This document shows, piece after piece, positions 7,352 through 38,914 of a stretch of DNA of 63,968 bases; within the stretch, counting starts at the first letter, position 1, and every line of letters starts with the position of its first letter. A model generated the notes under the pieces. The model was given only the letters and a program-made list of their open reading frames with translations, had not been told where the DNA came from and made no database searches. The stretch is from Candidatus Planktophila sp. (GTDB taxonomy: Bacteria > Actinomycetota > Actinomycetes > Nanopelagicales > Nanopelagicaceae), in assembly GCA_964202795.1 (NCBI GenBank), contig CAXNJS010000001.1, forward strand, positions 1-63,968, read 5' to 3'. The translations under genes and the position numbers were made by a program.

Positions 7352-7390
7352 TTTCGGGGTGTGTTGCCCCTGTAAGTAGCCACTTGCGTC

Positions 7391-7412
7391 TGTCAGTTGG
7401 GGGCGGTACTTT
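7391..7412 (+). promoter_or_regulatory. RecA-NDp/PafBC-type DNA-damage promoter motif
   Basis: TGTCAG-N10(TTGGGGGCGG)-TA-CTT-T matches TGTCRG-N10-TA-N3-T. Confidence 0.75.
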
Positions 7413-7428
7413 TCGAACATATGTTCGA
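7413..7428. promoter_or_regulatory. LexA SOS box (actinobacterial)
   Basis: Perfect palindrome TCGAACATATGTTCGA (TCGAAC-N4-GTTCGA) immediately after the -10 element. Confidence 0.93.
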
Positions 7429-7460: not shown

Positions 7461-7751
7461 ATGTCAGCCAACACCGCACCCATCGTCGTCGCCGGCCCAG
7501 AAGTTATGACCGATGGCGCAGCAACGCCAATTGAATTTACCTATCGCGGTCGACGCTTTCGAATTCACGCAGTGCTTACTAGATGGTGCGAAGCAGGCGG
7601 TTGGTGGAACCGAATTAGTGATGGCATCTATCGCCCCGATGACCAAGCTCGCGCACTTTGGCGCGTTGAAGCAGCACCGATTGGGGCGCTAACTACCTTC
7701 GAACTCGAACGCGATGAGATCTCGGGGCAATGGATTATTCGTAGCGTTTAG
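7461..7751 (+). CDS. Small DUF6504-like protein resembling a stand-alone ImuB C-terminal domain
   Basis: AGGAG SD; pattern PxxFxYRGR...RW...WW...WRVE...FELxR...W resembles the ImuB-C tail; first gene of the SOS operon. Confidence 0.75.
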   Translation: MSANTAPIVVAGPEVMTDGAATPIEFTYRGRRFRIHAVLTRWCEAGGWWNRISDGIYRPDDQARALWRVEAAPIGALTTFELERDEISGQWIIRSV

Positions 7752-7765
7752 CTGCGCTTACCTTT

Positions 7766-10700
7766 ATGAGTTTTATTCACTTACATGTTGCTAGCGCGTA
7801 CTCACTTAAGTACGGCACAACGCAACCTGCCAACTTAGTTGCTCGCGCCCGCGAATTTAATATGCCGGCGCTAGCAGTGACTGATCGCGATGGTTTGGCC
7901 GGTGCAATTCGTTTTGCCCAAAGTTGTGTTGCCGAAGGAATCGCACCAATCATTGGCGTTGATCTAGCAATTAAGTTGCCGGGCTTTACGGGCAAGAAAT
8001 TGCCGCGGCTAACACTGCTGGCAAATGGCGATGGTGGTTGGCGATCACTCTGTCGTTTCATGACTAGCTTGAATTTAACTGCAACTGATCGCAAGCCAGT
8101 AATTACCTTAGAGCTACTTGAAAGATTTAGTGAATACAGTTTAGGGTTACAAGTTTTGCACGGCCCCGAATCACCAGTTAGTTATGCCATCGCCGATAAG
8201 CGGCCAGATTTAGCAATTGAAGTTTTTAATAAAACTCGTGATCTCTTTGGTGATCATGCGATTGAAATCGTTTCGCATTTAGTCGCTGGCAGTGGCCCAC
8301 GATCAACGCCACATGCTGCACGATCGCTAATCTTTGCCCGCGATCATGATCTAGATGCTGTGCTAACGAACGCGGTGCGCATGCGCGATCGTGAAGATGG
8401 CCCAATTGCTGACATTCTCGATGCTGCTAGACAGTTAGTACCGCTGCATCCACGTCATGTCGAAAGACGCAATGCCGAAGCATTTTTAAAATCAACTGCT
8501 GCGATGGCAACCCTGGCTTCTGAAATTGCGTTAGCTGCCGGCGAGCGAACCCCGCGCTATTTGTTAAAGACCACTCGCAAATGGGCCGAACGCGCACTGC
8601 TTTCACCAACTCGCGATATTGGCTTAGGTGGCATTCATTTACCTGAAGCTCAAGTAGTAGGCGCCGCTAACCAGCAAGAGATGCGCACTTTGTTGCGTAG
8701 CCGTTGTGAATTAGGGCTTAACTGGCGATATGGCGATAGCGCCACGATTGCTAAAGCAAAGCAACGGTTAGATGACGAACTCGCAACTGTGGCAACGCTT
8801 GGTTACGAGTCATACTTTTTAACCGTTGCCGACATCACCGATATGGCGCGCGAACGTTCAATTCGTGTTGCAGCTCGTGGTTCAGGTGCTGGCTCGCTGA
8901 TCTGTCATCTACTTGGCATCTCTGGGGTTGAGCCAATGACCCATGGTTTATTAATGGAGCGCTTTTGTTCACCACTTCGTCGGGCGCTGCCAGATATTGA
9001 TATCGATGTTGAATCTGATCGTCGCTTAGAAATTTACGATTTAGTTTTCAAACGTTACGGCGATAGCAACTGGAGTAAACCCGGCAATACTTCGCGGTGT
9101 GCAACTGTGGCAATGGTTGATACCTATCGGGCTCGACATGCCATTCGCGATACTGGCGCTGCCATGGGAATGTCGCTGGGTGAGATTGATCTAATTGCCA
9201 AGTCCTTGCCACATGTGAGGGCACGCCATATTTCACAGGCCCTAGCAAATTTGCCTGAATTAAAAAGCTTAAATTTATCAGCGCCTCTTACCGCTATGAC
9301 TATTTCGTTAGCCGAACGACTCGATGGCTTGCCGCGCCATTTAGCGATGCATCCATGCGCAGTGGTGCTATCTGATGGTGGTTTATTAGATCGAGCGCCG
9401 TTAACCTTAAATGCTGGTGGCTACCCGATGGTGGAATTTGATAAAGATGATGTCGAAGCAGTTGGGTTATTGAAGTTAGATATCTTGGGCGTGCGCATGC
9501 AATCGAGTATTTCATTTGCATTATCGGAAATTGAACGTACCGAAGCTAAAAGTATTGATATCGATGCAGTCGTACTAGATGATGCGAAAACTTTCGAACT
9601 GATTAAATCGACTAAGACACTCGGGATATTTCAAATTGAAAGTCCAGGGCAGCGTGAACTAGTTGGCAAACTTGAGCCAAATACTTTTAACGATTTAATT
9701 ATCGAGATTTCACTCTTTCGCCCCGGGCCAGTTAAAAGCGACATGATCACGCCATTTCTAAAAGCGCGGCATGGTTGGTCGGCAGCGAAATTAATTCATC
9801 CTCGGCTGCACGGTATTTTGGCCGAAACCGAAGGCGTCGTGGTCTTTCACGAACAGGTAATCCGCATCATTGCCGAAATGGCCGGTGTCTCATTGGCCCA
9901 AGCTGATGAGAAGCGGCGCGCACTCGGTGATCGCGATGGTCAGCAAGAGGTCTGCGACTGGTTCTTTCCGGCTGCTACCGAAGCTGGTTTTGAGCTGCCG
10001 GTAATTAGCGAAGTCTGGGAAGTCTTGCGCGCTTTTGCATCCTTTGGTTTTTGTAAAGCACATGCTGCAGCCTTTGCGCTGCCCACTTATCAATCAGCTT
10101 GGCTGAAAACTCATTACCCAGCGGCTTTCTTAGCTGGTGTTTTAACCCATGACCCAGGCATGTATCCGAAGCGGTTAATTCTCGATGAGGTGCGCCAATT
10201 AGGTCTAACTATTGCCCCGCTTGATATTAATTACTCTGACCGGGTTTATCGGGTTGAAGATAAGGGCAGCGCAATTCGCATTTCACTATCAACGGTTGGT
10301 GGCATTAGCGATCGCGAAATCGACAGCATTATTGCAGCCCGACCATATGTTGATCTCGCTGATTTCTTCCGTCGTTCAGGGGCAGCGATGCCAACTATTG
10401 AATCACTAATTCTTACTGGTGCTTTTGATGCGATACATAACTTAGCTAGCATCAAACTTAATCGACGTGATCTATTACTGCACTTAAGTGATCTACAACA
10501 AGGGCCAGCGCAAGTGATTTCTGGTTCACAATTAACTTTTGGTTTTGCACCCCCTGCGCTAATTCCAAGTGGGTTACCCGAACTGCGAGCTAACGAGAAA
10601 GTACAACACGAAATAGAGCGACTCGGTATGGATGTAACGCACCACATGATTGAGTTCTACGGCGAATTTTTAAATGCAATTGGTGCAGTGCGTTCATGCG

Positions 10701-11029
10701 AACTTTTGAAGCAACGTTCGCGTACCGCGATCTTGGTTGCTGGTGTAAAAGTCATGCTACAGACACCGCCAGTTCGATCAGGTAAACGAGTAATTTTCTT
10801 AACGCTAGACGATGGTTATGGCTGCAGCGATGCGACCTTCTTTCCGGATGCCCAAACTAATTACGCCAGCACACTTTATAACTCGCAATTGTTGTTAGTG
10901 CGGGGCGAAGTTCGCCGTACTGGCGCTAGGGGAGTATCACTACGTGCTGATGCAGCTTGGTCTTTACCTGATCTTTACGCCCAATGGTTAGCAAATAAAG
11001 CAGATACATCTAATAAGGTGGCGATATGA
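7766..11029 (+). CDS. dnaE2: Error-prone DNA polymerase III alpha subunit (DnaE2-type)
   Basis: PHP domain (HLHVASAYS), RGSGAGS, catalytic PDIDID and KLDILG, FGFCKAHA, OB fold; SOS-regulated and distinct from the replicative dnaE at 35414. Confidence 0.9.
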   Translation: MSFIHLHVASAYSLKYGTTQPANLVARAREFNMPALAVTDRDGLAGAIRFAQSCVAEGIAPIIGVDLAIKLPGFTGKKLPRLTLLANGDGGWRSLCRFMTSLNLTATDRKPVITLELLERFSEYSLGLQVLHGPESPVSYAIADKRPDLAIEVFNKTRDLFGDHAIEIVSHLVAGSGPRSTPHAARSLIFARDHDLDAVLTNAVRMRDREDGPIADILDAARQLVPLHPRHVERRNAEAFLKSTAAMATLASEIALAAGERTPRYLLKTTRKWAERALLSPTRDIGLGGIHLPEAQVVGAANQQEMRTLLRSRCELGLNWRYGDSATIAKAKQRLDDELATVATLGYESYFLTVADITDMARERSIRVAARGSGAGSLICHLLGISGVEPMTHGLLMERFCSPLRRALPDIDIDVESDRRLEIYDLVFKRYGDSNWSKPGNTSRCATVAMVDTYRARHAIRDTGAAMGMSLGEIDLIAKSLPHVRARHISQALANLPELKSLNLSAPLTAMTISLAERLDGLPRHLAMHPCAVVLSDGGLLDRAPLTLNAGGYPMVEFDKDDVEAVGLLKLDILGVRMQSSISFALSEIERTEAKSIDIDAVVLDDAKTFELIKSTKTLGIFQIESPGQRELVGKLEPNTFNDLIIEISLFRPGPVKSDMITPFLKARHGWSAAKLIHPRLHGILAETEGVVVFHEQVIRIIAEMAGVSLAQADEKRRALGDRDGQQEVCDWFFPAATEAGFELPVISEVWEVLRAFASFGFCKAHAAAFALPTYQSAWLKTHYPAAFLAGVLTHDPGMYPKRLILDEVRQLGLTIAPLDINYSDRVYRVEDKGSAIRISLSTVGGISDREIDSIIAARPYVDLADFFRRSGAAMPTIESLILTGAFDAIHNLASIKLNRRDLLLHLSDLQQGPAQVISGSQLTFGFAPPALIPSGLPELRANEKVQHEIERLGMDVTHHMIEFYGEFLNAIGAVRSCELLKQRSRTAILVAGVKVMLQTPPVRSGKRVIFLTLDDGYGCSDATFFPDAQTNYASTLYNSQLLLVRGEVRRTGARGVSLRADAAWSLPDLYAQWLANKADTSNKVAI

Positions 11030-12246
11030 GCAGCGAGCCAACCGAGGCAACGGCGACAATTTTGCATGTTGATATGGATGCTTTCTATGCCTCAGTTGCT
11101 GAACGAGATGACCCATCGCTGCGTGGGAAAGCAGTAGTAGTTGGGGTAGGGGCGCGTGGCGTGGTGCTGTCAGCAAATTACGCAGCACGTAAATATGGAA
11201 TCAGGGCCGCGATGCCAGTTGGTCGCGCAAAGCGAATGGCGCCGCATGCAATTTTCGTAACTCCGGATCATCAGCGATACTCCGAAGTTTCAGCAAAAGT
11301 AATGGAAATCTTTGAATCATTTACCCCACTGGTCGAACCAATCTCACTCGATGAAGCTTTCCTTGATGTGACAGGTGCTCGCAAATTACTTGGTACTGGA
11401 CGAGAAATTGCAGTTGAGATCCGTCGCCAAGTTGAAGCCAGTGAAGGCATTACTTGCTCAGTAGGTATTGCACCTTCAAAGTTCATTGCCAAGTTAGCAT
11501 CTGGTCACTGCAAGCCAAACGGCATCTTAGAAATTCCAGCAGATCGAATTCTAAACTTTTTACATCCCTTGCCAGTAAATGCAATTTGGGGCGTGGGACC
11601 AAAGACCGCTGAAACCCTCGAGCGGTTAGGTTTGCGCACCGTTGCCGACATTGCTAATTTGCCTCGCACAACTTTGATTCGAGCTCTTGGTCAAGCAAGT
11701 GGCGCGTCACTATATGAGCTAGCTTGGGGTCGCGACTATCGCGATGTAACACCGAATGAACCAGATAAAAGTATTTCGGCAGCTGAAACTTTTGCCCAAG
11801 ATTTAGATGACCCCGAAGAAATTCTGCAGGAGTTCTTACGGCTTACCGAAAAAGCAGCAGCCCGATTACGTGAAAATAATTACTATGCCAAAACAATTTC
11901 GATCAAAGTTCGCTTCGCTGATTTCTCAACTATCTCGCGTTCAAAAACTTTGCCACTGCCAATTGATAGCACTCACGATATTTATGAAATTGCTAAATCG
12001 CTTTACTTAGCGCTCAACCTTGATCGAGCTCGCTTGCGTCTAGTTGGCATTTCACTCGATAACTTAAGTGAGGCGGCCCCAGAGCAATTGCTTTTAGGAG
12101 CTCGCGAAAAAGGCTGGCGCGAGGCTGATACGGCGATAGATCGGGCCAAATTACGCTTCGGTGGGGGTAGCGTGCGGCCAGGACGGCTGATTAAGAAATC
12201 CTCAGCAGATCCCAAGGCGCTAGATGACGAAAAAGGTAGCGAGTAA
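11026..12246 (+). CDS. dinB: DNA polymerase IV (Y-family)
   Basis: HVDMDAFYASV and SLDEAFLD catalytic motifs intact; little-finger domain; QLLL clamp motif; ATGA overlap with dnaE2. Confidence 0.93.
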   Translation: MSSEPTEATATILHVDMDAFYASVAERDDPSLRGKAVVVGVGARGVVLSANYAARKYGIRAAMPVGRAKRMAPHAIFVTPDHQRYSEVSAKVMEIFESFTPLVEPISLDEAFLDVTGARKLLGTGREIAVEIRRQVEASEGITCSVGIAPSKFIAKLASGHCKPNGILEIPADRILNFLHPLPVNAIWGVGPKTAETLERLGLRTVADIANLPRTTLIRALGQASGASLYELAWGRDYRDVTPNEPDKSISAAETFAQDLDDPEEILQEFLRLTEKAAARLRENNYYAKTISIKVRFADFSTISRSKTLPLPIDSTHDIYEIAKSLYLALNLDRARLRLVGISLDNLSEAAPEQLLLGAREKGWREADTAIDRAKLRFGGGSVRPGRLIKKSSADPKALDDEKGSE

Positions 12247-12271: not shown

Positions 12272-12643
12272 ATGCCACTTTCGGAGCGTGAAGAGAAGCT
12301 ACTGGCCCAGATGGAAAAGGCCATGTTGGTCGACGATCCACGCCTAGTTTCTACGCTAACTGGTGCTCCAACAAAATCTAGTCGCCGCAATTTAGGTCTA
12401 GCCGTGGTCCTATTTTTCGCAGGGTTTGGCGCAGTTTTTGGTGGCCTATTTAGCAAGATCTATCCAATTAGTTGGGTTGGATTTTTGATTTGCTTGACTG
12501 GTTTATCGATTCTAGCTGCCGGACTTAAGGGCAAAGTAGAAGCACTTGCCCAGGGCCAGCGCCCCGCAAAGCCAGTTAAAAGGGGCTTTAAAGAGCGTAT
12601 GGATGATCGCTGGGATAATCGTGGACCAAATCCAATCGATTAA
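12272..12643 (+). CDS. DUF3040 family membrane protein
   Basis: MPLSEREEKLLAQMEKAML-DDP N-terminus, two TMs, C-terminal RMDDRW; usual position upstream of mraZ. Start set to the ATG at 12272. Confidence 0.8.
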   Translation: MPLSEREEKLLAQMEKAMLVDDPRLVSTLTGAPTKSSRRNLGLAVVLFFAGFGAVFGGLFSKIYPISWVGFLICLTGLSILAAGLKGKVEALAQGQRPAKPVKRGFKERMDDRWDNRGPNPID

Positions 12644-12663: not shown

Positions 12664-12688
12664 AGGCCCCTAACCGGGGTCTTTTTTT
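12664..12688 (+). terminator. Rho-independent terminator
   Basis: AGGCCCC-TAACC-GGGGTCT hairpin followed by a T run. Confidence 0.8.
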
Positions 12689-12736
12689 ATGCCTGAAATC
12701 AGCTTGGGGTGGGAGTGGAGCGATCTGCCTTTTTAA

Positions 12737-35413: not shown

Positions 35414-38400
35414 ATGTCTGACTCATTCGTTCACTTACACGTACACACCGAGTACTCGATGCTCGATGGTGCGGCGCGCGTTGGCGAATTAGTTCAAGCA
35501 GCAGCCCAGCTAGAAATGCCAGCAATTGCAATGACCGATCATGGAAATGTTTTCGGCGCTTTCGATTTTTATAAGCAAGCAACTAAAGCCGGCATTAAGC
35601 CAATCATCGGAATTGAAGCCTACGTGGCACCTGAATCTAGATTCAATAAGAGTCGGGTTAAGTGGGCCGATGGTGGCGAAGATGATGTTTCAGGTGGTGG
35701 CTCATATACGCACATGACCATGCTGGCTGAAAATAACGTTGGGCTAGCAAATCTTTTCCGGTTATCTTCGCTGGCATCACTTGAGGGTTTTTATTACAAA
35801 CCACGGATGGATCGTGAGCTACTTTCTAAATATGCTGAAGGAATTATTGCAACCACTGGTTGCCCGGGTGGCGAGATTCAAACTCGGTTACGTATGGGTG
35901 CTTACAAAGAGGCGCTACGTGCTGCCAGTGATTATCGCGATATTTTTGGCGCCAATAACTTCTACCTCGAATTAATGGATCATGGAATTGAAATTGAAAC
36001 TCGAGTTAAAGCCGATCTTTTGAAGTTAGCTAAAGATCTAAAGTTGCCGCTACTAGCAACTAACGATCTGCACTACACCGCTAAAGCTGATGCCAAATCA
36101 CACGAAGCGCTGCTCTGCGTGCAATCAGGTTCAACACTGGCTGATCCAAAACGCTTTAAGTTTGATAACGATGAATTTTATTTAAAGACCCCAGCTGAGA
36201 TGCGCGAACTCTTCAAAGAGTTGCCCGAAGCCTGCGATAACACTTTGCTGATCGCCTCACGTTGTGATGTTAAATTGCGGGAGAACGAAAATTTGATGCC
36301 AGTCTTCCCAGTTCCGGCTGGAGAAACTGAAGTGACTTGGCTGATAAAAGAGTCCCAAGCTGGTTTATTGCGTCGGCTAAATGGCGATGTGCCTGCTGCG
36401 TATTCCGAACGTTTAAATTATGAACTTGAAGTTATGAACAAAATGGGTTTTCCAGGCTACTTCTTAGTGGTTGCCGACTTAGTTTCACATGCGCAAAGCC
36501 AAGGAATTCGAGTGGGCCCTGGTCGCGGTTCAGCGGCTGGCTCATTAGTTGCATATGCCTTAGGAATTACCGGGCTTGACCCAATTGAACATGGTCTGTT
36601 GTTTGAGCGATTCCTAAATCCAGAACGTATCTCAATGCCTGATATCGATCTGGACTTCGATGAACGTCGTCGCAGCGAGATGATTCGTTATGCCACAACT
36701 AAATACGGCGAAGATCGCGTTGCCCAGATCATCACTTACGGCACCATCAAGTCGAAGCAGGCAATTAAAGATTCAACCCGAGTCCTTGGTTATCCGTATG
36801 CAATCGGTGAGCGGTTAACTAAAGCTCTGCCGCCTGCTGTGATGGGTAAAGATATTTCATTAGGCGGCATCTTTAATCCGCAAGATGAACGCTATGGCGA
36901 GGCTAATGAATTTCGTCAACTTTATGAAACTGATCCAGATAGCAAAGTGGTAGTTGATACTGCTCGTGGCCTGGAAGGGCTCAAGCGACAGTGGGGAGTC
37001 CACGCAGCAGGTGTGATTCTTTCAGCCCAACCGTTACTTGATGTGATTCCAATTCATCGCCGCGAAGCTGATGGCGCAATCATCACGCAATTCGATATGG
37101 GCGCTTGCGAAGCCACTGGTTTGTTAAAGATGGACTTCTTAGGACTACGAAACCTTTCCGTCCTTGATGACTGCTTACTAAACATAAAAGCTAACCGAGG
37201 CGAAGAAGTTGTACTGGAAACTTTAAAACTCGATGATAAGAAAACCTATGAATTACTTTCCCGTGGAGACACTCTGGGTGTGTTTCAACTCGATGGTGGG
37301 CCAATGCGCGCACTACTTAAGAGTTTGGCGCCAGATTCATTTGCCGATATTTCAGCAGTAATTGCGTTATATCGCCCTGGCCCAATGGGTGAAAACGCGC
37401 ATAACAACTACGCCGACCGTAAAAATAAACGTAAGCCGGTTGAGCCAATTCATGCTGAACTGGAAAAACCACTCGAAGAAATTCTGGGTGATACCTATGG
37501 GCTAATTGTTTATCAAGAACAGGTTATGGCAATAGCCCAGAAAGTTGCAGGGTTCTCACTTGGTCGCGCGGATCTTTTGCGTAAGGCAATGGGTAAGAAA
37601 AATCGTGACGTGCTAGATAAAGAGTATGTTCACTTCGAAAGTGGCATGCGTGGAAACGGCTTCTCAGCGCCAGCAATTAAGCGTCTTTGGGATGTTCTGA
37701 TTCCGTTCTCAGATTACGCATTCAACCGAGCGCATAGTGCAGGCTATGGCATGGTCTCGTATTGGACCGGATATCTAAAGGCTAATTATCCAGCCGAATA
37801 TATGGCAGCACTTTTAACGAGTGTTCGTGACGACAAAGATAAATCGGCGCTTTATCTATCGGAATGCCGCCGCATGGGCAGCAAAGTCTTGCCGCCAGAT
37901 GTTAATGAATCTGACGCCGAGTACACCCCGCGCGGAATCGATATCCGTTTCGGTCTAGCTGCTATTCGCAATGTTGGTGAAGGTGTGGTTGCTTCCATTA
38001 AGGCAGCGCGTGAAGCTAAAGGTCGCTTCACTTCATTCGGTGATTTCTTAGCCAAAGTTGATGCCCAAGTTTGCAACAAGAAGACCATTGAATCTTTAAT
38101 TAAAGCTGGCGCTTTTGACTCACTGGGCGAATCTCGTAAAGGTTTGATGAGCATTCATCTTGAAGCCATTGACTCAGTAATTGAAAGTAAGCGCGCTGAA
38201 GCTATTGGCCAATTCGATCTATTCGGTGGCGAGGGCACAACTGCAGTTGCCACCATGGAAGTAGAAGTGCCAACTGGTGAATGGGAAAAAGCGCTGCTCT
38301 TGAGCTACGAGCGCGAAATGTTAGGACTATACGTTTCCGATCATCCACTTCTTGGCGTTGAACATATTCTGCGAGCCAGCGTTTCCAAATCAATTTCCGA

Positions 38401-38914
38401 GTTAATTGATGAAGGCGGAGATCACGAACAGATTGTGACGATCGGTGGATTGATCACTGGCATTACTCGTAAAATAACTAAGACTGGTTCGAACTGGGCA
38501 GTCGTAAATATCGAAGATCTAGAAGGCGCTCTAGAAGTATTATTCTTCTCAAATACTTACAATCAATACGCACTTACCTTAACGACTGATCGAGTGGCAC
38601 TTATTCGCGGTCGAGTAGATCGACGCGAAGATAAACTTCGCTTCACCGCTCTCGAAGTTACTTTTCCAGATATCTCGCAAGGCCCAGCAGGACCATTAGT
38701 AATTTCGATGCCAGTGGCCCAATGCACACCACCGATCGTTGATCGATTGAAAGAGATCTTGCGCACTCATCCTGGACAGCGTGAAGTCCATCTGCAATTA
38801 GAGGAACTCAGCGGTAACACAGTCATGAAGCTGGAATTTAAGGTCACATCTTCGCCAAGTTTGAGTGCTGATCTCAAAGCGATCCTCGGGGCTAATTGTC
38901 TGCAGAACGTATAG
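35414..38914 (+). CDS. dnaE: Replicative DNA polymerase III alpha subunit
   Basis: HLHVHTEYSMLDG intact PHP, PDIDLD, KMDFLG, QFDLF clamp motif, C-terminal tau-binding region. Confidence 0.96.
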   Translation: MSDSFVHLHVHTEYSMLDGAARVGELVQAAAQLEMPAIAMTDHGNVFGAFDFYKQATKAGIKPIIGIEAYVAPESRFNKSRVKWADGGEDDVSGGGSYTHMTMLAENNVGLANLFRLSSLASLEGFYYKPRMDRELLSKYAEGIIATTGCPGGEIQTRLRMGAYKEALRAASDYRDIFGANNFYLELMDHGIEIETRVKADLLKLAKDLKLPLLATNDLHYTAKADAKSHEALLCVQSGSTLADPKRFKFDNDEFYLKTPAEMRELFKELPEACDNTLLIASRCDVKLRENENLMPVFPVPAGETEVTWLIKESQAGLLRRLNGDVPAAYSERLNYELEVMNKMGFPGYFLVVADLVSHAQSQGIRVGPGRGSAAGSLVAYALGITGLDPIEHGLLFERFLNPERISMPDIDLDFDERRRSEMIRYATTKYGEDRVAQIITYGTIKSKQAIKDSTRVLGYPYAIGERLTKALPPAVMGKDISLGGIFNPQDERYGEANEFRQLYETDPDSKVVVDTARGLEGLKRQWGVHAAGVILSAQPLLDVIPIHRREADGAIITQFDMGACEATGLLKMDFLGLRNLSVLDDCLLNIKANRGEEVVLETLKLDDKKTYELLSRGDTLGVFQLDGGPMRALLKSLAPDSFADISAVIALYRPGPMGENAHNNYADRKNKRKPVEPIHAELEKPLEEILGDTYGLIVYQEQVMAIAQKVAGFSLGRADLLRKAMGKKNRDVLDKEYVHFESGMRGNGFSAPAIKRLWDVLIPFSDYAFNRAHSAGYGMVSYWTGYLKANYPAEYMAALLTSVRDDKDKSALYLSECRRMGSKVLPPDVNESDAEYTPRGIDIRFGLAAIRNVGEGVVASIKAAREAKGRFTSFGDFLAKVDAQVCNKKTIESLIKAGAFDSLGESRKGLMSIHLEAIDSVIESKRAEAIGQFDLFGGEGTTAVATMEVEVPTGEWEKALLLSYEREMLGLYVSDHPLLGVEHILRASVSKSISELIDEGGDHEQIVTIGGLITGITRKITKTGSNWAVVNIEDLEGALEVLFFSNTYNQYALTLTTDRVALIRGRVDRREDKLRFTALEVTFPDISQGPAGPLVISMPVAQCTPPIVDRLKEILRTHPGQREVHLQLEELSGNTVMKLEFKVTSSPSLSADLKAILGANCLQNV

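What the first reader, a model, noticed from the sequence alone, without database searches (positions are those of the whole stretch)
7461..12246. Non-canonical mutasome: stand-alone ImuB-C-like protein + DnaE2 + catalytically intact DinB, no ImuA/ImuB
Seen: three co-oriented genes (14-nt gap, then an ATGA overlap) behind one SOS promoter. The 96-aa protein carries the PxxF...W...WW...WRV...L.R...W pattern of the ImuB C-terminal domain. DinB keeps both catalytic motifs (DMDAF, SLDE). Established: canonical imuA-imuB-dnaE2 cassettes use a catalytically dead Y-family ImuB, whose C-terminus binds DnaE2 and which supplies clamp binding. Inference: here ImuB is split or replaced, with the DnaE2-binding domain as a free adaptor and an active Pol IV in the Y-family slot. 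That would be a two-polymerase translesion complex kept in a streamlined, UV-exposed freshwater bacterium.
Basis: partly seen in the sequence, partly recalled or inferred. Interest (0 to 1): 0.85.

Follow-up and report, generated by a model that had tools for sequence, protein, structure and literature searches.

The report
Minimal SOS ImuB-C/DnaE2B/DinB polymerase operon
A small-genome actinobacterium, likely a freshwater Ca. Planktophila, carries a strongly conserved three-gene operon behind a damage-response (LexA-type) box, encoding two DNA polymerases that are likely error-prone and a small protein predicted to bind one of them; this kind of module was already described by computation in 2026, and this copy is a stripped-down version of it.

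Summary
A perfect SOS box (7413-7428) abuts a conserved promoter-like site. It is followed by a 96-aa DUF6504 gene, dnaE2 (14-nt gap) and dinB (ATGA overlap), with polymerase catalytic motifs intact and dN/dS at or below 0.04.

The small protein is a stand-alone ImuB-C: its family profile matches proteobacterial ImuB tails (HHalign 94.8%) and the D. deserti ImuB-C, but not actinobacterial ImuB-C. No true imuB was found here or in 22 family relatives.

It is not new. It fits the DnaE2B–ImuB-C–PolY–RecA module (PMC12926913, 2026), and this scan found it before on other genomes. It is also not a freshwater speciality: 17 of 23 other actinomycete families sampled have the gene.

What I add: this family keeps a minimal form (no HEPN in 0 of 60 genomes; no methyltransferase, long leader or DnaE2 tail in loci read). 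DnaE2B has its own clamp-like motif. ImuB-C, dnaE2 and the SOS box move or vanish together in three relatives while dinB stays by DUF3040–mraZ. The core is therefore likely ImuB-C·DnaE2B, with DinB a looser partner. Complex prediction gave only weak support.

The parts
7384..7412 (+). Putative promoter: -35-like TTGCGT (7384-7389), 17-nt spacer, -10-like TACTTT (7407-7412)
   Evidence: Read by eye from the sequence. A TTGC...TAnnnT arrangement just ahead of the box recurs in the family relatives printed. The sigma-70 consensus scan did not call it.
7413..7428 (.). SOS (LexA-type) box TCGAAC-ATAT-GTTCGA, directly abutting the -10-like element
   Evidence: A box lies upstream in 20 of 20 loci and in 17 of 17 further family loci centred on the small gene. 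A lexA homologue is on contig C12 (E 7e-16).
7461..7751 (+). Stand-alone ImuB-C (DUF6504), 96 aa, predicted mainly beta
   Evidence: Pfam PF20114 E 1.8e-10. Family profile vs five ImuB1 tails: HHalign 94.8%, E 4.9e-8. Vs D. deserti ImuB-C: 39 bits, 0 of 500 shuffles. AF2 pLDDT 77 with five strands. 25 synonymous and 0 non-synonymous changes vs G070.
7766..11029 (+). DnaE2, B-type clade: PHP (metal ligands degenerate), polymerase (D410, D412, D572), finger, HhH, OB; no tau-binding C-terminal domain
   Evidence: tree; dN/dS 0.036. 28.5% identical to the replicative DnaE1 at 35414-38911.
10529..10546 (+). Putative beta-clamp motif QLTFGF of DnaE2 (aa 922-927), between HhH and OB
   Evidence: A similar motif was found by pattern in 5 of 6 genus sequences and 10 of 12 class-level sequences, 0 of 2 imuB-linked DnaE2A, and 19 of 19 further family sequences. 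Binding untested.
11026..12246 (+). DinB / PolY-core Y-family polymerase, 406 aa, catalytic motifs intact, aromatic steric-gate position (Y21) kept
   Evidence: NCBIfam PRK03858 389 bits, above cut-off 367; motifs; dN/dS 0.033. The steric-gate position is assigned from recalled E. coli DinB numbering.
12085..12189 (+). DinB tail: clamp-like QLLL (aa 354) followed by a RecA-NT-like motif (aa 363-388)
   Evidence: Tail conserved in 26 of 27 DinBs. It is the best-scoring window for the relatives' RecA N-terminus in most of them, but not significant genome-wide. A very similar stretch in Thermobifida PolY-core is listed as RecA-NT-like in the supplement of PMC6511836.
12272..12643 (+). DUF3040 / SCO2097-family membrane protein, 25 nt downstream of dinB; resident neighbour of dinB, not part of the polymerase set
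   Evidence: Linked to dinB also in genomes with canonical imuA-imuB or with no cassette.
12664..12689 (+). Intrinsic-terminator-like hairpin with T tract after DUF3040, before mraZ
   Evidence: The scan found 11 sites against 8.0 expected, so this is a lead only. No comparable T-tailed hairpin lies between dinB and DUF3040.

Best explanation
This is a likely LexA-repressed, damage-induced operon for translesion DNA synthesis, whose core is predicted to be a pair of the free ImuB-C protein and a proofreading-deficient DnaE2B polymerase, with the catalytically intact-looking DinB as a likely co-regulated but separable partner. Shown: gene order, the box abutting a promoter-like site, intact polymerase motifs, degenerate PHP ligands, ImuB-C homology, purifying selection, and absence of imuB in the relatives searched. 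Inferred steps: (1) DNA damage leads to RecA-promoted LexA cleavage and frees the promoter. (2) ImuB-C docks on the DnaE2 PHP domain as a small non-catalytic subunit. (3) DnaE2B loads on the beta clamp through its own QLTFGF motif, so it would not need an ImuB to tether it. (4) DinB binds the clamp (QLLL) and RecA (RecA-NT tail), with RecA in the place of ImuA. (5) DinB would insert opposite a lesion and DnaE2B would extend, or the two would act on different lesions. It is a member of the published DnaE2B–ImuB-C–PolY–RecA module type, in a minimal form.
For: ImuB-C homology. DnaE2 sits in a 22-row clade (SH-aLRT 100, quick tree) apart from nine imuB-linked DnaE2A and from D. deserti DnaE2. A true ImuB was found in only 4 of 46 genomes, and all four lack the stand-alone gene; 0 of 17 DUF6504-positive class-level genomes and 0 of 23 family genomes have one. 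In G087 and G091 the SOS box, ImuB-C and dnaE2 lie about 360-390 kb from dinB, which has no box within 250 nt at up to 3 mismatches; G101 lacks both ImuB-C and dnaE2 but keeps dinB. G038 and Nonomuraea show no dinB hit beside ImuB-C–dnaE2 in the stretches read, and G038's dinB is on another contig. dinB–DUF3040 linkage exists without the pair in 6 of 6 such loci (L087-L091, L096). Complex prediction of ImuB-C with DnaE2 aa 1-296: weak support, score 0.55 against best control 0.04, runs agree in at least 94% of contacts, partner pLDDT at least 68. The mark was reached by 116 of 157 solved complexes and 2 of 215 mismatches, but at 0.60 or under by only 18 solved complexes and by both mismatches. 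PMC12926913 reports mean AlphaFold-Multimer ipTM 0.89 for DnaE2B–ImuB-C and 0.84 for the four-part complex, and a PHP–ImuB-C interface in the canonical mutasome model.
Against: No experiment on this module type was found in my searches. G110 (single contig, 99% complete) has SOS box–dnaE2–dinB with no ImuB-C anywhere, so the pairing is not absolute. The complex score is in the weak range. The three genes stay together, often with overlapping or abutting frames, in most relatives (12 of 17 class-level genomes on one contig; 15 of 17 family loci), which fits a tighter DinB partnership than I assume. The RecA-NT match is not statistically significant on its own, and recA is missing from this incomplete assembly. 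In S. coelicolor, loss of dnaE2 (a different DnaE2B subgroup) did not change UV survival or mutagenesis (PMC3273824).
Confidence: 0.58

Rival explanations
1. Obligate four-part mutasome: DinB plus ImuB-C rebuild a split, catalytically active ImuB; DinB binds DnaE2B, clamp and RecA, and DnaE2B works only inside this complex.
For: Translational coupling (ATGA overlap). Operon kept in most relatives. Mutual exclusion with imuB. Published four-part AlphaFold-Multimer ipTM 0.84 ± 0.06 over 5 species. Clamp-like and RecA-NT-like motifs sit in the DinB tail where ImuB has them.
Against: dinB is separable and loses the SOS box in G087 and G091, survives loss of the pair in G101, and sits beside DUF3040 even in genomes with canonical imuA-imuB. 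DnaE2B carries its own clamp-like motif. The same paper lists a DnaE2B–ImuB-C-only group. I did not model DinB with DnaE2.
Confidence: 0.28
2. ImuB-C is mainly a damaged-DNA sensor or a DinB/RecA-side factor, not a DnaE2 subunit; the genes are merely co-regulated.
For: DNA-binding role proposed in PMC3765255. Exposed Trp and Arg residues are conserved. Stand-alone ImuB-C also occurs with PolY alone and, on one plasmid, with no polymerase among the listed neighbours. G110 keeps dnaE2 without it.
Against: ImuB-C travels with dnaE2, not with dinB, whenever the locus splits (G038, G087, G091, Nonomuraea). Weak complex support with the PHP domain.
Confidence: 0.09
3. The DnaE2B–ImuB-C pair mainly fills repair gaps or tolerates non-UV damage, and contributes little to UV mutagenesis.
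For: Streptomyces dnaE2 was induced by UV and MMS yet dispensable for UV survival and mutagenesis (PMC3273824). The operon is common in large-genome actinomycetes.
Against: The Streptomyces enzyme belongs to a different subgroup, paired with an inactive DinB2. Degenerate PHP ligands predict low fidelity.
Confidence: 0.05

Closest known systems
DnaE2B–PolY–[ImuB-C]–RecA putative mutasome of Actinobacteria (Timinskas, Kazlauskas, Timinskas, Venclovas, NAR 2026, PMC12926913; representative Tessaracoccus lapidicaptus VEP41449-VEP41451)
   Same: Same three components (consecutive accession numbers in the representative), apparently active PolY, stand-alone ImuB-C, no imuA/imuB in the genome, reported only in Actinobacteria.
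   Different: No difference in composition. This copy lacks the HEPN gene, methyltransferase gene, long leader and DnaE2 C-terminal tail seen in larger-genome relatives; the paper's main text does not mention HEPN, methyltransferase, Planktophila or streamlining. I could not compare with the T. lapidicaptus sequences; the DnaE2 rows lie beyond the part of the supplement that is held.
DnaE2B–[ImuB-C] module (Arthrobacter alpinus type, PMC12926913)
   Same: Stand-alone ImuB-C beside DnaE2B; matches the state of relatives G087, G091 and G038.
   Different: In the window dinB is in the same operon.
[quoted passage not shown]
   Same: Stand-alone ImuB-C of the same DUF6504 family directly before dnaE2; SOS control; no imuA.
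   Different: The Y-family partner ImuY is predicted inactive; that DnaE2 falls outside the window's clade; lexA is in the operon.
Canonical ImuA–ImuB–DnaE2A mutasome (Mycobacterium, Caulobacter)
   Same: SOS-type control, C-family DnaE2 and an ImuB-C domain.
   Different: ImuB-C is fused to a dead Y-family domain and ImuA is present; DnaE2A is a separate clade and lacked the clamp-like motif in the two examples checked.
Streptomyces dnaE2–dinB2 operon (PMC3273824)
   Same: ATGA overlap between dnaE2 and a dinB; SOS box; DnaE2B group.
   Different: DinB2 is classed as inactive and ImuB-C as missing there.

Membership tests
DnaE2B–PolY–ImuB-C–RecA module | [quoted passage not shown] | tested here: met
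   PF20114 hit. Profile hits the 80-aa protein between imuY and dnaE2 of D. deserti (39 bits, 0 of 500 shuffles) and ImuB1 tails (HHalign 94.8%). Separate ORF.
DnaE2B–PolY–ImuB-C–RecA module | DnaE2 of group B (not A or X) | tested here: inconclusive
   A 100-support clade excludes imuB-linked DnaE2A and D. deserti DnaE2 (quick tree), which fits group B. No reference DnaE2B from the paper could be included; assignment is by exclusion and context.
DnaE2B–PolY–ImuB-C–RecA module | DnaE2 polymerase active site (three aspartates) intact | tested here: met
   D410, D412, D572; kept in 18 of 18 cassette DnaE2 sequences.
DnaE2B–PolY–ImuB-C–RecA module | Associated PolY with intact catalytic residues | tested here: met
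   DMDAF and SLDE; PRK03858 above cut-off; ATGA overlap.
DnaE2B–PolY–ImuB-C–RecA module | RecA-NT motif in the PolY tail | tested here: inconclusive
   Right position, after the clamp motif; 8 of 17 identities by eye to relatives' RecA N-terminus; very like the stretch the 2019 supplement lists for Thermobifida. HMM and ungapped scores were not significant genome-wide.
DnaE2B–PolY–ImuB-C–RecA module | No imuA or imuB in the genome; recA present | tested here: met
   No ImuB in G000 or 22 family genomes. One Y-family gene over cut-off and one recA in 5 of 5 complete congeners. imuA was searched only in G000 (none) and by the RecA family scan. recA itself is missing from the 76%-complete G000 assembly.
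DnaE2B–PolY–ImuB-C–RecA module | Actinobacterial host | tested here: met
   A 76%-identical homologue is named from a Ca. Nanopelagicaceae bacterium (P0046). The window's DnaE1 N-terminus resembles the Ca. Planktophila sequences in the 2026 supplement (by eye). GC 45.8%.
DnaE2B–PolY–ImuB-C–RecA module | Physical complex and mutagenic activity | not testable with these tools
   Only a weak-support prediction for ImuB-C with the PHP domain.
Canonical ImuA–ImuB–DnaE2A mutasome | ImuB: inactive Y-family domain fused to ImuB-C, plus ImuA | tested here: not met
   DinB is intact and has no ImuB-C; no imuA or imuB found.
DnaE2X–iPolY–ImuB-C–RecA (Deinococcus type) | Inactive Y-family partner and DnaE2X | tested here: not met
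   Catalytic motifs are present; D. deserti DnaE2 lies outside the clade (long branch, placement unsure).
Streptomyces DnaE2B–scDinB2 | Inactive DinB2 partner, no ImuB-C | tested here: not met
   Active-type motifs in DinB, and ImuB-C is present.

The most novel reading that the evidence does not exclude
Genome streamlining has pared the actinomycete SOS polymerase operon to its working core: a self-sufficient ImuB-C·DnaE2B mutasome that loads on the clamp through its own motif and needs no ImuA, ImuB, HEPN, methyltransferase or C-terminal tail, and that trades places on the clamp with an active, RecA-bound DinB. This would be the smallest C-family mutasome, a reconstitutable two- to three-protein system for finding out what ImuB-C does, and a standing inducible mutator in abundant freshwater bacteria.
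Probability: 0.35. Interest if true: 0.5.

Novelty: new member of a known kind. Interest (0 to 1): 0.27.

Why it matters
The architecture is catalogued but, as far as my searches show, untested at the bench, and the job of the ImuB-C domain is still open even in the well-studied canonical mutasome. This compact version has a free 96-aa ImuB-C and a DnaE2 without extra tail or passenger genes, so it is a practical system for structure and reconstitution. The small gene is kept in 57 of 60 near-complete genomes of 1.2-2.2 Mb, and the three genes show strong purifying selection in the one pair tested. That suggests inducible lesion bypass survives genome reduction in this family. As a discovery it is ordinary.

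Tried and rejected
1. Direct homology to actinobacterial ImuB2-C was not significant. HHalign probability was 0.7% with 4 sequences and 1.0% with 165 vs 120 sequences, score 15.1 against shuffled mean 12.3 and maximum 22.7; no ImuB2 reached 10 bits. One of five ImuB1 tails (Thalassospira) also failed, and one (Sulfitobacter) was marginal.

2. Fused forms. The search of longer proteins returned 21 hits, none with an IMS (Y-polymerase) domain; several single-contig hits join DUF6504 to HEPN or PHP domains and were not checked. The representative search listed 150 of 1403 hits, nearly all small proteins.

3. Fold searches gave nothing clear: no Foldseek hit at E ≤ 0.001 and best VIA Z 5.8 (cystatin-like sheets). 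This neither supports nor excludes a new fold. The Atlas returned only DUF6504 clusters.

4. RecA-NT significance: the HMM of DinB tails scored RecA at about 2 bits, and the ungapped score of 25 was below at least 12 chance windows in the genome.

5. Expression or co-transcription: public runs hold only small shares of the stretch and are contigs, which may include DNA. Short RNA-library contigs cross both gene junctions but show no single transcript, so nothing is concluded.

6. The promoter scan did not call the SOS promoter.

7. A freshwater or UV adaptation was rejected because the operon is class-wide.

8. G108's lack of DUF6504 is uninformative: there is an N gap at the site.

9. The careful tree did not finish; the quick tree is reported.

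11. The script stopped at L049, so L049-L052 were not scored for inserted genes there.
Full report
Observation. A perfect palindrome TCGAAC-ATAT-GTTCGA at 7413-7428 is the only such box in the window (0.10 expected; 10 of 100 shuffles have one) and the only perfect one in the assembly. It directly follows a TTGCGT-17 nt-TACTTT promoter-like site that recurs in family relatives (by eye). A lexA homologue lies on contig C12. That this palindrome is the actinobacterial LexA box is recalled knowledge, consistent with the GAAC-N4-RTTY box cited in PMC3273824. Against the close relative G070, the small gene has 25 synonymous and no non-synonymous differences; dN/dS is 0.036 for dnaE2 and 0.033 for dinB.

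Host. The genome is 1.21 Mb in 85 contigs, 45.8% GC and 76% complete. A 76%-identical homologue of the small protein is named from a Ca. Nanopelagicaceae bacterium. The window's DnaE1 N-terminus resembles the Ca. Planktophila DnaE1 sequences printed in the supplement of PMC12926913 (by eye). I infer the acI lineage, likely Ca. Planktophila.

The small protein. It is Pfam DUF6504, a term that my full-text search found in no paper. A class-level homologue found, in the plasmid collection, the 80-aa DUF6504 gene between imuY and dnaE2 of D. deserti. By gene order and length this is the stand-alone ImuB-C of PMC8072749 (passages). A 165-sequence profile scores it at 39 bits (0 of 500 shuffles). 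The same profile scores three of five proteobacterial ImuB tails at 12-16 bits (0 of 500 each), one marginally and one not at all; profile against profile gives 94.8%, E 4.9e-8 over 81 columns. DUF6504 also rings once in the Caulobacter control genome (locus not inspected). Against actinobacterial ImuB2 tails the match was not significant. AF2 gives a mainly beta domain, pLDDT 77, with no clear PDB match. PMC12926913 likewise calls ImuB-C a beta-barrel without close PDB relatives.

The polymerases. DnaE2 has PHP, polymerase, finger, HhH and OB domains and ends soon after the OB fold. D410, D412 and D572 are intact. Several PHP metal-ligand positions listed for DnaE1 in the 2026 supplement are replaced (HxH to HVA, TDH to TDR, NDLH to NAVR), which predicts no proofreading. 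In a quick tree of 34 sequences it lies in a 22-row actinomycete clade (support 100), apart from nine imuB-linked DnaE2A and D. deserti DnaE2. It carries QLTFGF at aa 922, at about the place of QFDLF in the window's DnaE1 (aa 933). A like motif occurs in 5 of 6 genus, 10 of 12 class-level and 19 of 19 further family sequences, and in 0 of 2 actinobacterial DnaE2A. DinB passes the PRK03858 cut-off and keeps both catalytic motifs. It ends in QLLL plus a RecA-NT-like stretch that closely resembles the one listed for Thermobifida PolY-core in the supplement of PMC6511836, though my own significance tests on it failed.

Absence of imuA/imuB. G000 has one Y-family gene and no ImuA or ImuB hit, but it also lacks recA, so this alone is weak. 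Five complete congeners each have one Y-family gene over cut-off and one recA. A full-length ImuB profile run over 46 genomes found true ImuB (over 400 bits) only in G037, G055, G056 and G058; all other hits are under 90 bits, cover only the polymerase region and mostly coincide with DinB genes. Those four are among the six class-level genomes without stand-alone DUF6504; none of the 17 with it has ImuB. These genomes are a sample, and kin are not independent.

Distribution. DUF6504 is in 32 of 36 congeners of mixed completeness and 17 of 23 other actinomycete families, and in 57 of 60 near-complete family genomes. Twelve of the 17 class-level genomes show small gene, dnaE2 and dinB on one contig; four are cut by contig ends but have dnaE2–dinB–DUF3040 adjacent; one (G038) has dinB elsewhere. 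The operon is thus class-wide and sits upstream of DUF3040, with mraZ next in this family. It is not a freshwater invention.

Minimal form. Following a lead from earlier notes of this scan, I looked for extra parts. In 10 of 11 class-level loci scored, a HEPN-like ORF lies between the small gene and dnaE2 (4 of 4 checked are PF18726). A methyltransferase lies between dnaE2 and dinB in 5 of 10 (3 of 3 checked). The box-to-start distance is 88-245 nt in those loci. All 12 class-level DnaE2 end in a tail with an LWHxS-type motif. The window and five congeners have gaps of 0-14 nt, box-to-start distances under 50 nt and no tail. HEPN was found in 0 of 60 family genomes, and none of 19 further family DnaE2 has the tail. 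G045, a 1.4-Mb genome of another family, also lacks HEPN and the tail. I did not test the leader hairpin of the relatives.

Which parts belong together. In G087 and G091 the box, ImuB-C and dnaE2 lie 360-390 kb from dinB, which stays between doxX and DUF3040 with no box. G101 has lost the pair and kept dinB. dinB–DUF3040 linkage also holds in genomes with canonical imuA-imuB. So ImuB-C follows dnaE2, and dinB is the resident gene. Against this, G110 keeps box–dnaE2–dinB with no ImuB-C, and most relatives keep all three genes tightly packed. The complex prediction for ImuB-C with DnaE2 aa 1-296 gave weak support: 0.55 against best control 0.04, at least 94% contact agreement, partner pLDDT at least 68. 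The mark was reached by 116 of 157 solved complexes and 2 of 215 mismatches, but at 0.60 or under by only 18 solved ones and both mismatches. The prior from published models makes a true contact more likely than the score alone.

Mechanism. Most likely LexA represses the promoter until damage. ImuB-C then binds the dead PHP domain of DnaE2B, DnaE2B loads on the clamp by its own motif and synthesises without proofreading, and DinB, bound to clamp and RecA, acts beside it or hands over to it. Anatomy, conservation and homology are shown; induction, all contacts and the division of labour are inferred.

What is known. [quoted passage not shown] Its genome set includes six Ca. Planktophila and three Ca. 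Nanopelagicus genomes, but the DnaE2 rows lie beyond the held part of the supplement, so I could not see how they were classed. PMC6511836 (passages, section 12, supplement searches) and PMC3765255 (passages) had already described stand-alone ImuB-C with PolY or DnaE2. PMC3273824 (passages) gives the Streptomyces genetics. Searches combining Planktophila or Nanopelagicales with these polymerases listed no paper naming those taxa among the 20 and 10 shown. This scan has reported the same module on at least 24 other genomes, including freshwater relatives; these are AI notes, not support.

Verdict. Real, functional-looking, and a new member of a computationally described, experimentally untested kind. 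The minimal form, the DnaE2B clamp-like motif and the separability of dinB are modest additions. Interest 0.27.

Noticed in passing
window 12272-12643 and 12664-12689: The DUF3040/SCO2097-family gene starts 25 nt after dinB, and the first T-tailed hairpin comes after it, so SOS transcription could run into this membrane-protein gene just upstream of the division cluster.
   Followed up: partly
L088, L089, L096, L087 (G056, G037, G058, G055): In genomes with canonical imuA-imuB an SOS-like box still lies about 0.5-2 kb upstream of the resident dinB, where ImuB-C and dnaE2B would be. This may be a remnant of the longer operon.
   Followed up: no
L038-L048, L051 DnaE2 C-termini: A conserved C-terminal tail (SPYAD...LWHSSPGSS-type) in class-level DnaE2B that is absent from the Nanopelagicaceae-type sequences read and from G045; partner unknown.
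   Followed up: partly
L140 (G110) around 7600-7800: SOS box about 80 nt from dnaE2 with short tandem repeats in place of the ImuB-C gene; no ImuB-C elsewhere in this complete genome; its PHP motifs are more altered.
   Followed up: partly
L049:3068-3070 (G045): dnaE2 is interrupted by an in-frame stop, giving two ORFs of 471 and 688 codons; assembly error or early pseudogene.
   Followed up: no
L117:4450-4701 (Thermaerobacter plasmid): A DUF6504 gene with no polymerase among the listed neighbours, beside toxin-antitoxin and integrase genes.
   Followed up: no
G000 C12:2931 and C41:6418: Only two further near-perfect SOS boxes in the assembly under the strict pattern; the neighbouring genes were not identified. 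recA is missing from the assembly.
   Followed up: partly
P0128, P0132, P0135, P0136, P0139: Single-contig proteins in which DUF6504 appears joined to HEPN_SAV_6107 (and once also PHP); may be frameshift artefacts or true fusions.
   Followed up: no
window 35414-38911: Replicative DnaE1 with a QFDLF clamp motif lies in the same window, 24 kb downstream.
   Followed up: yes
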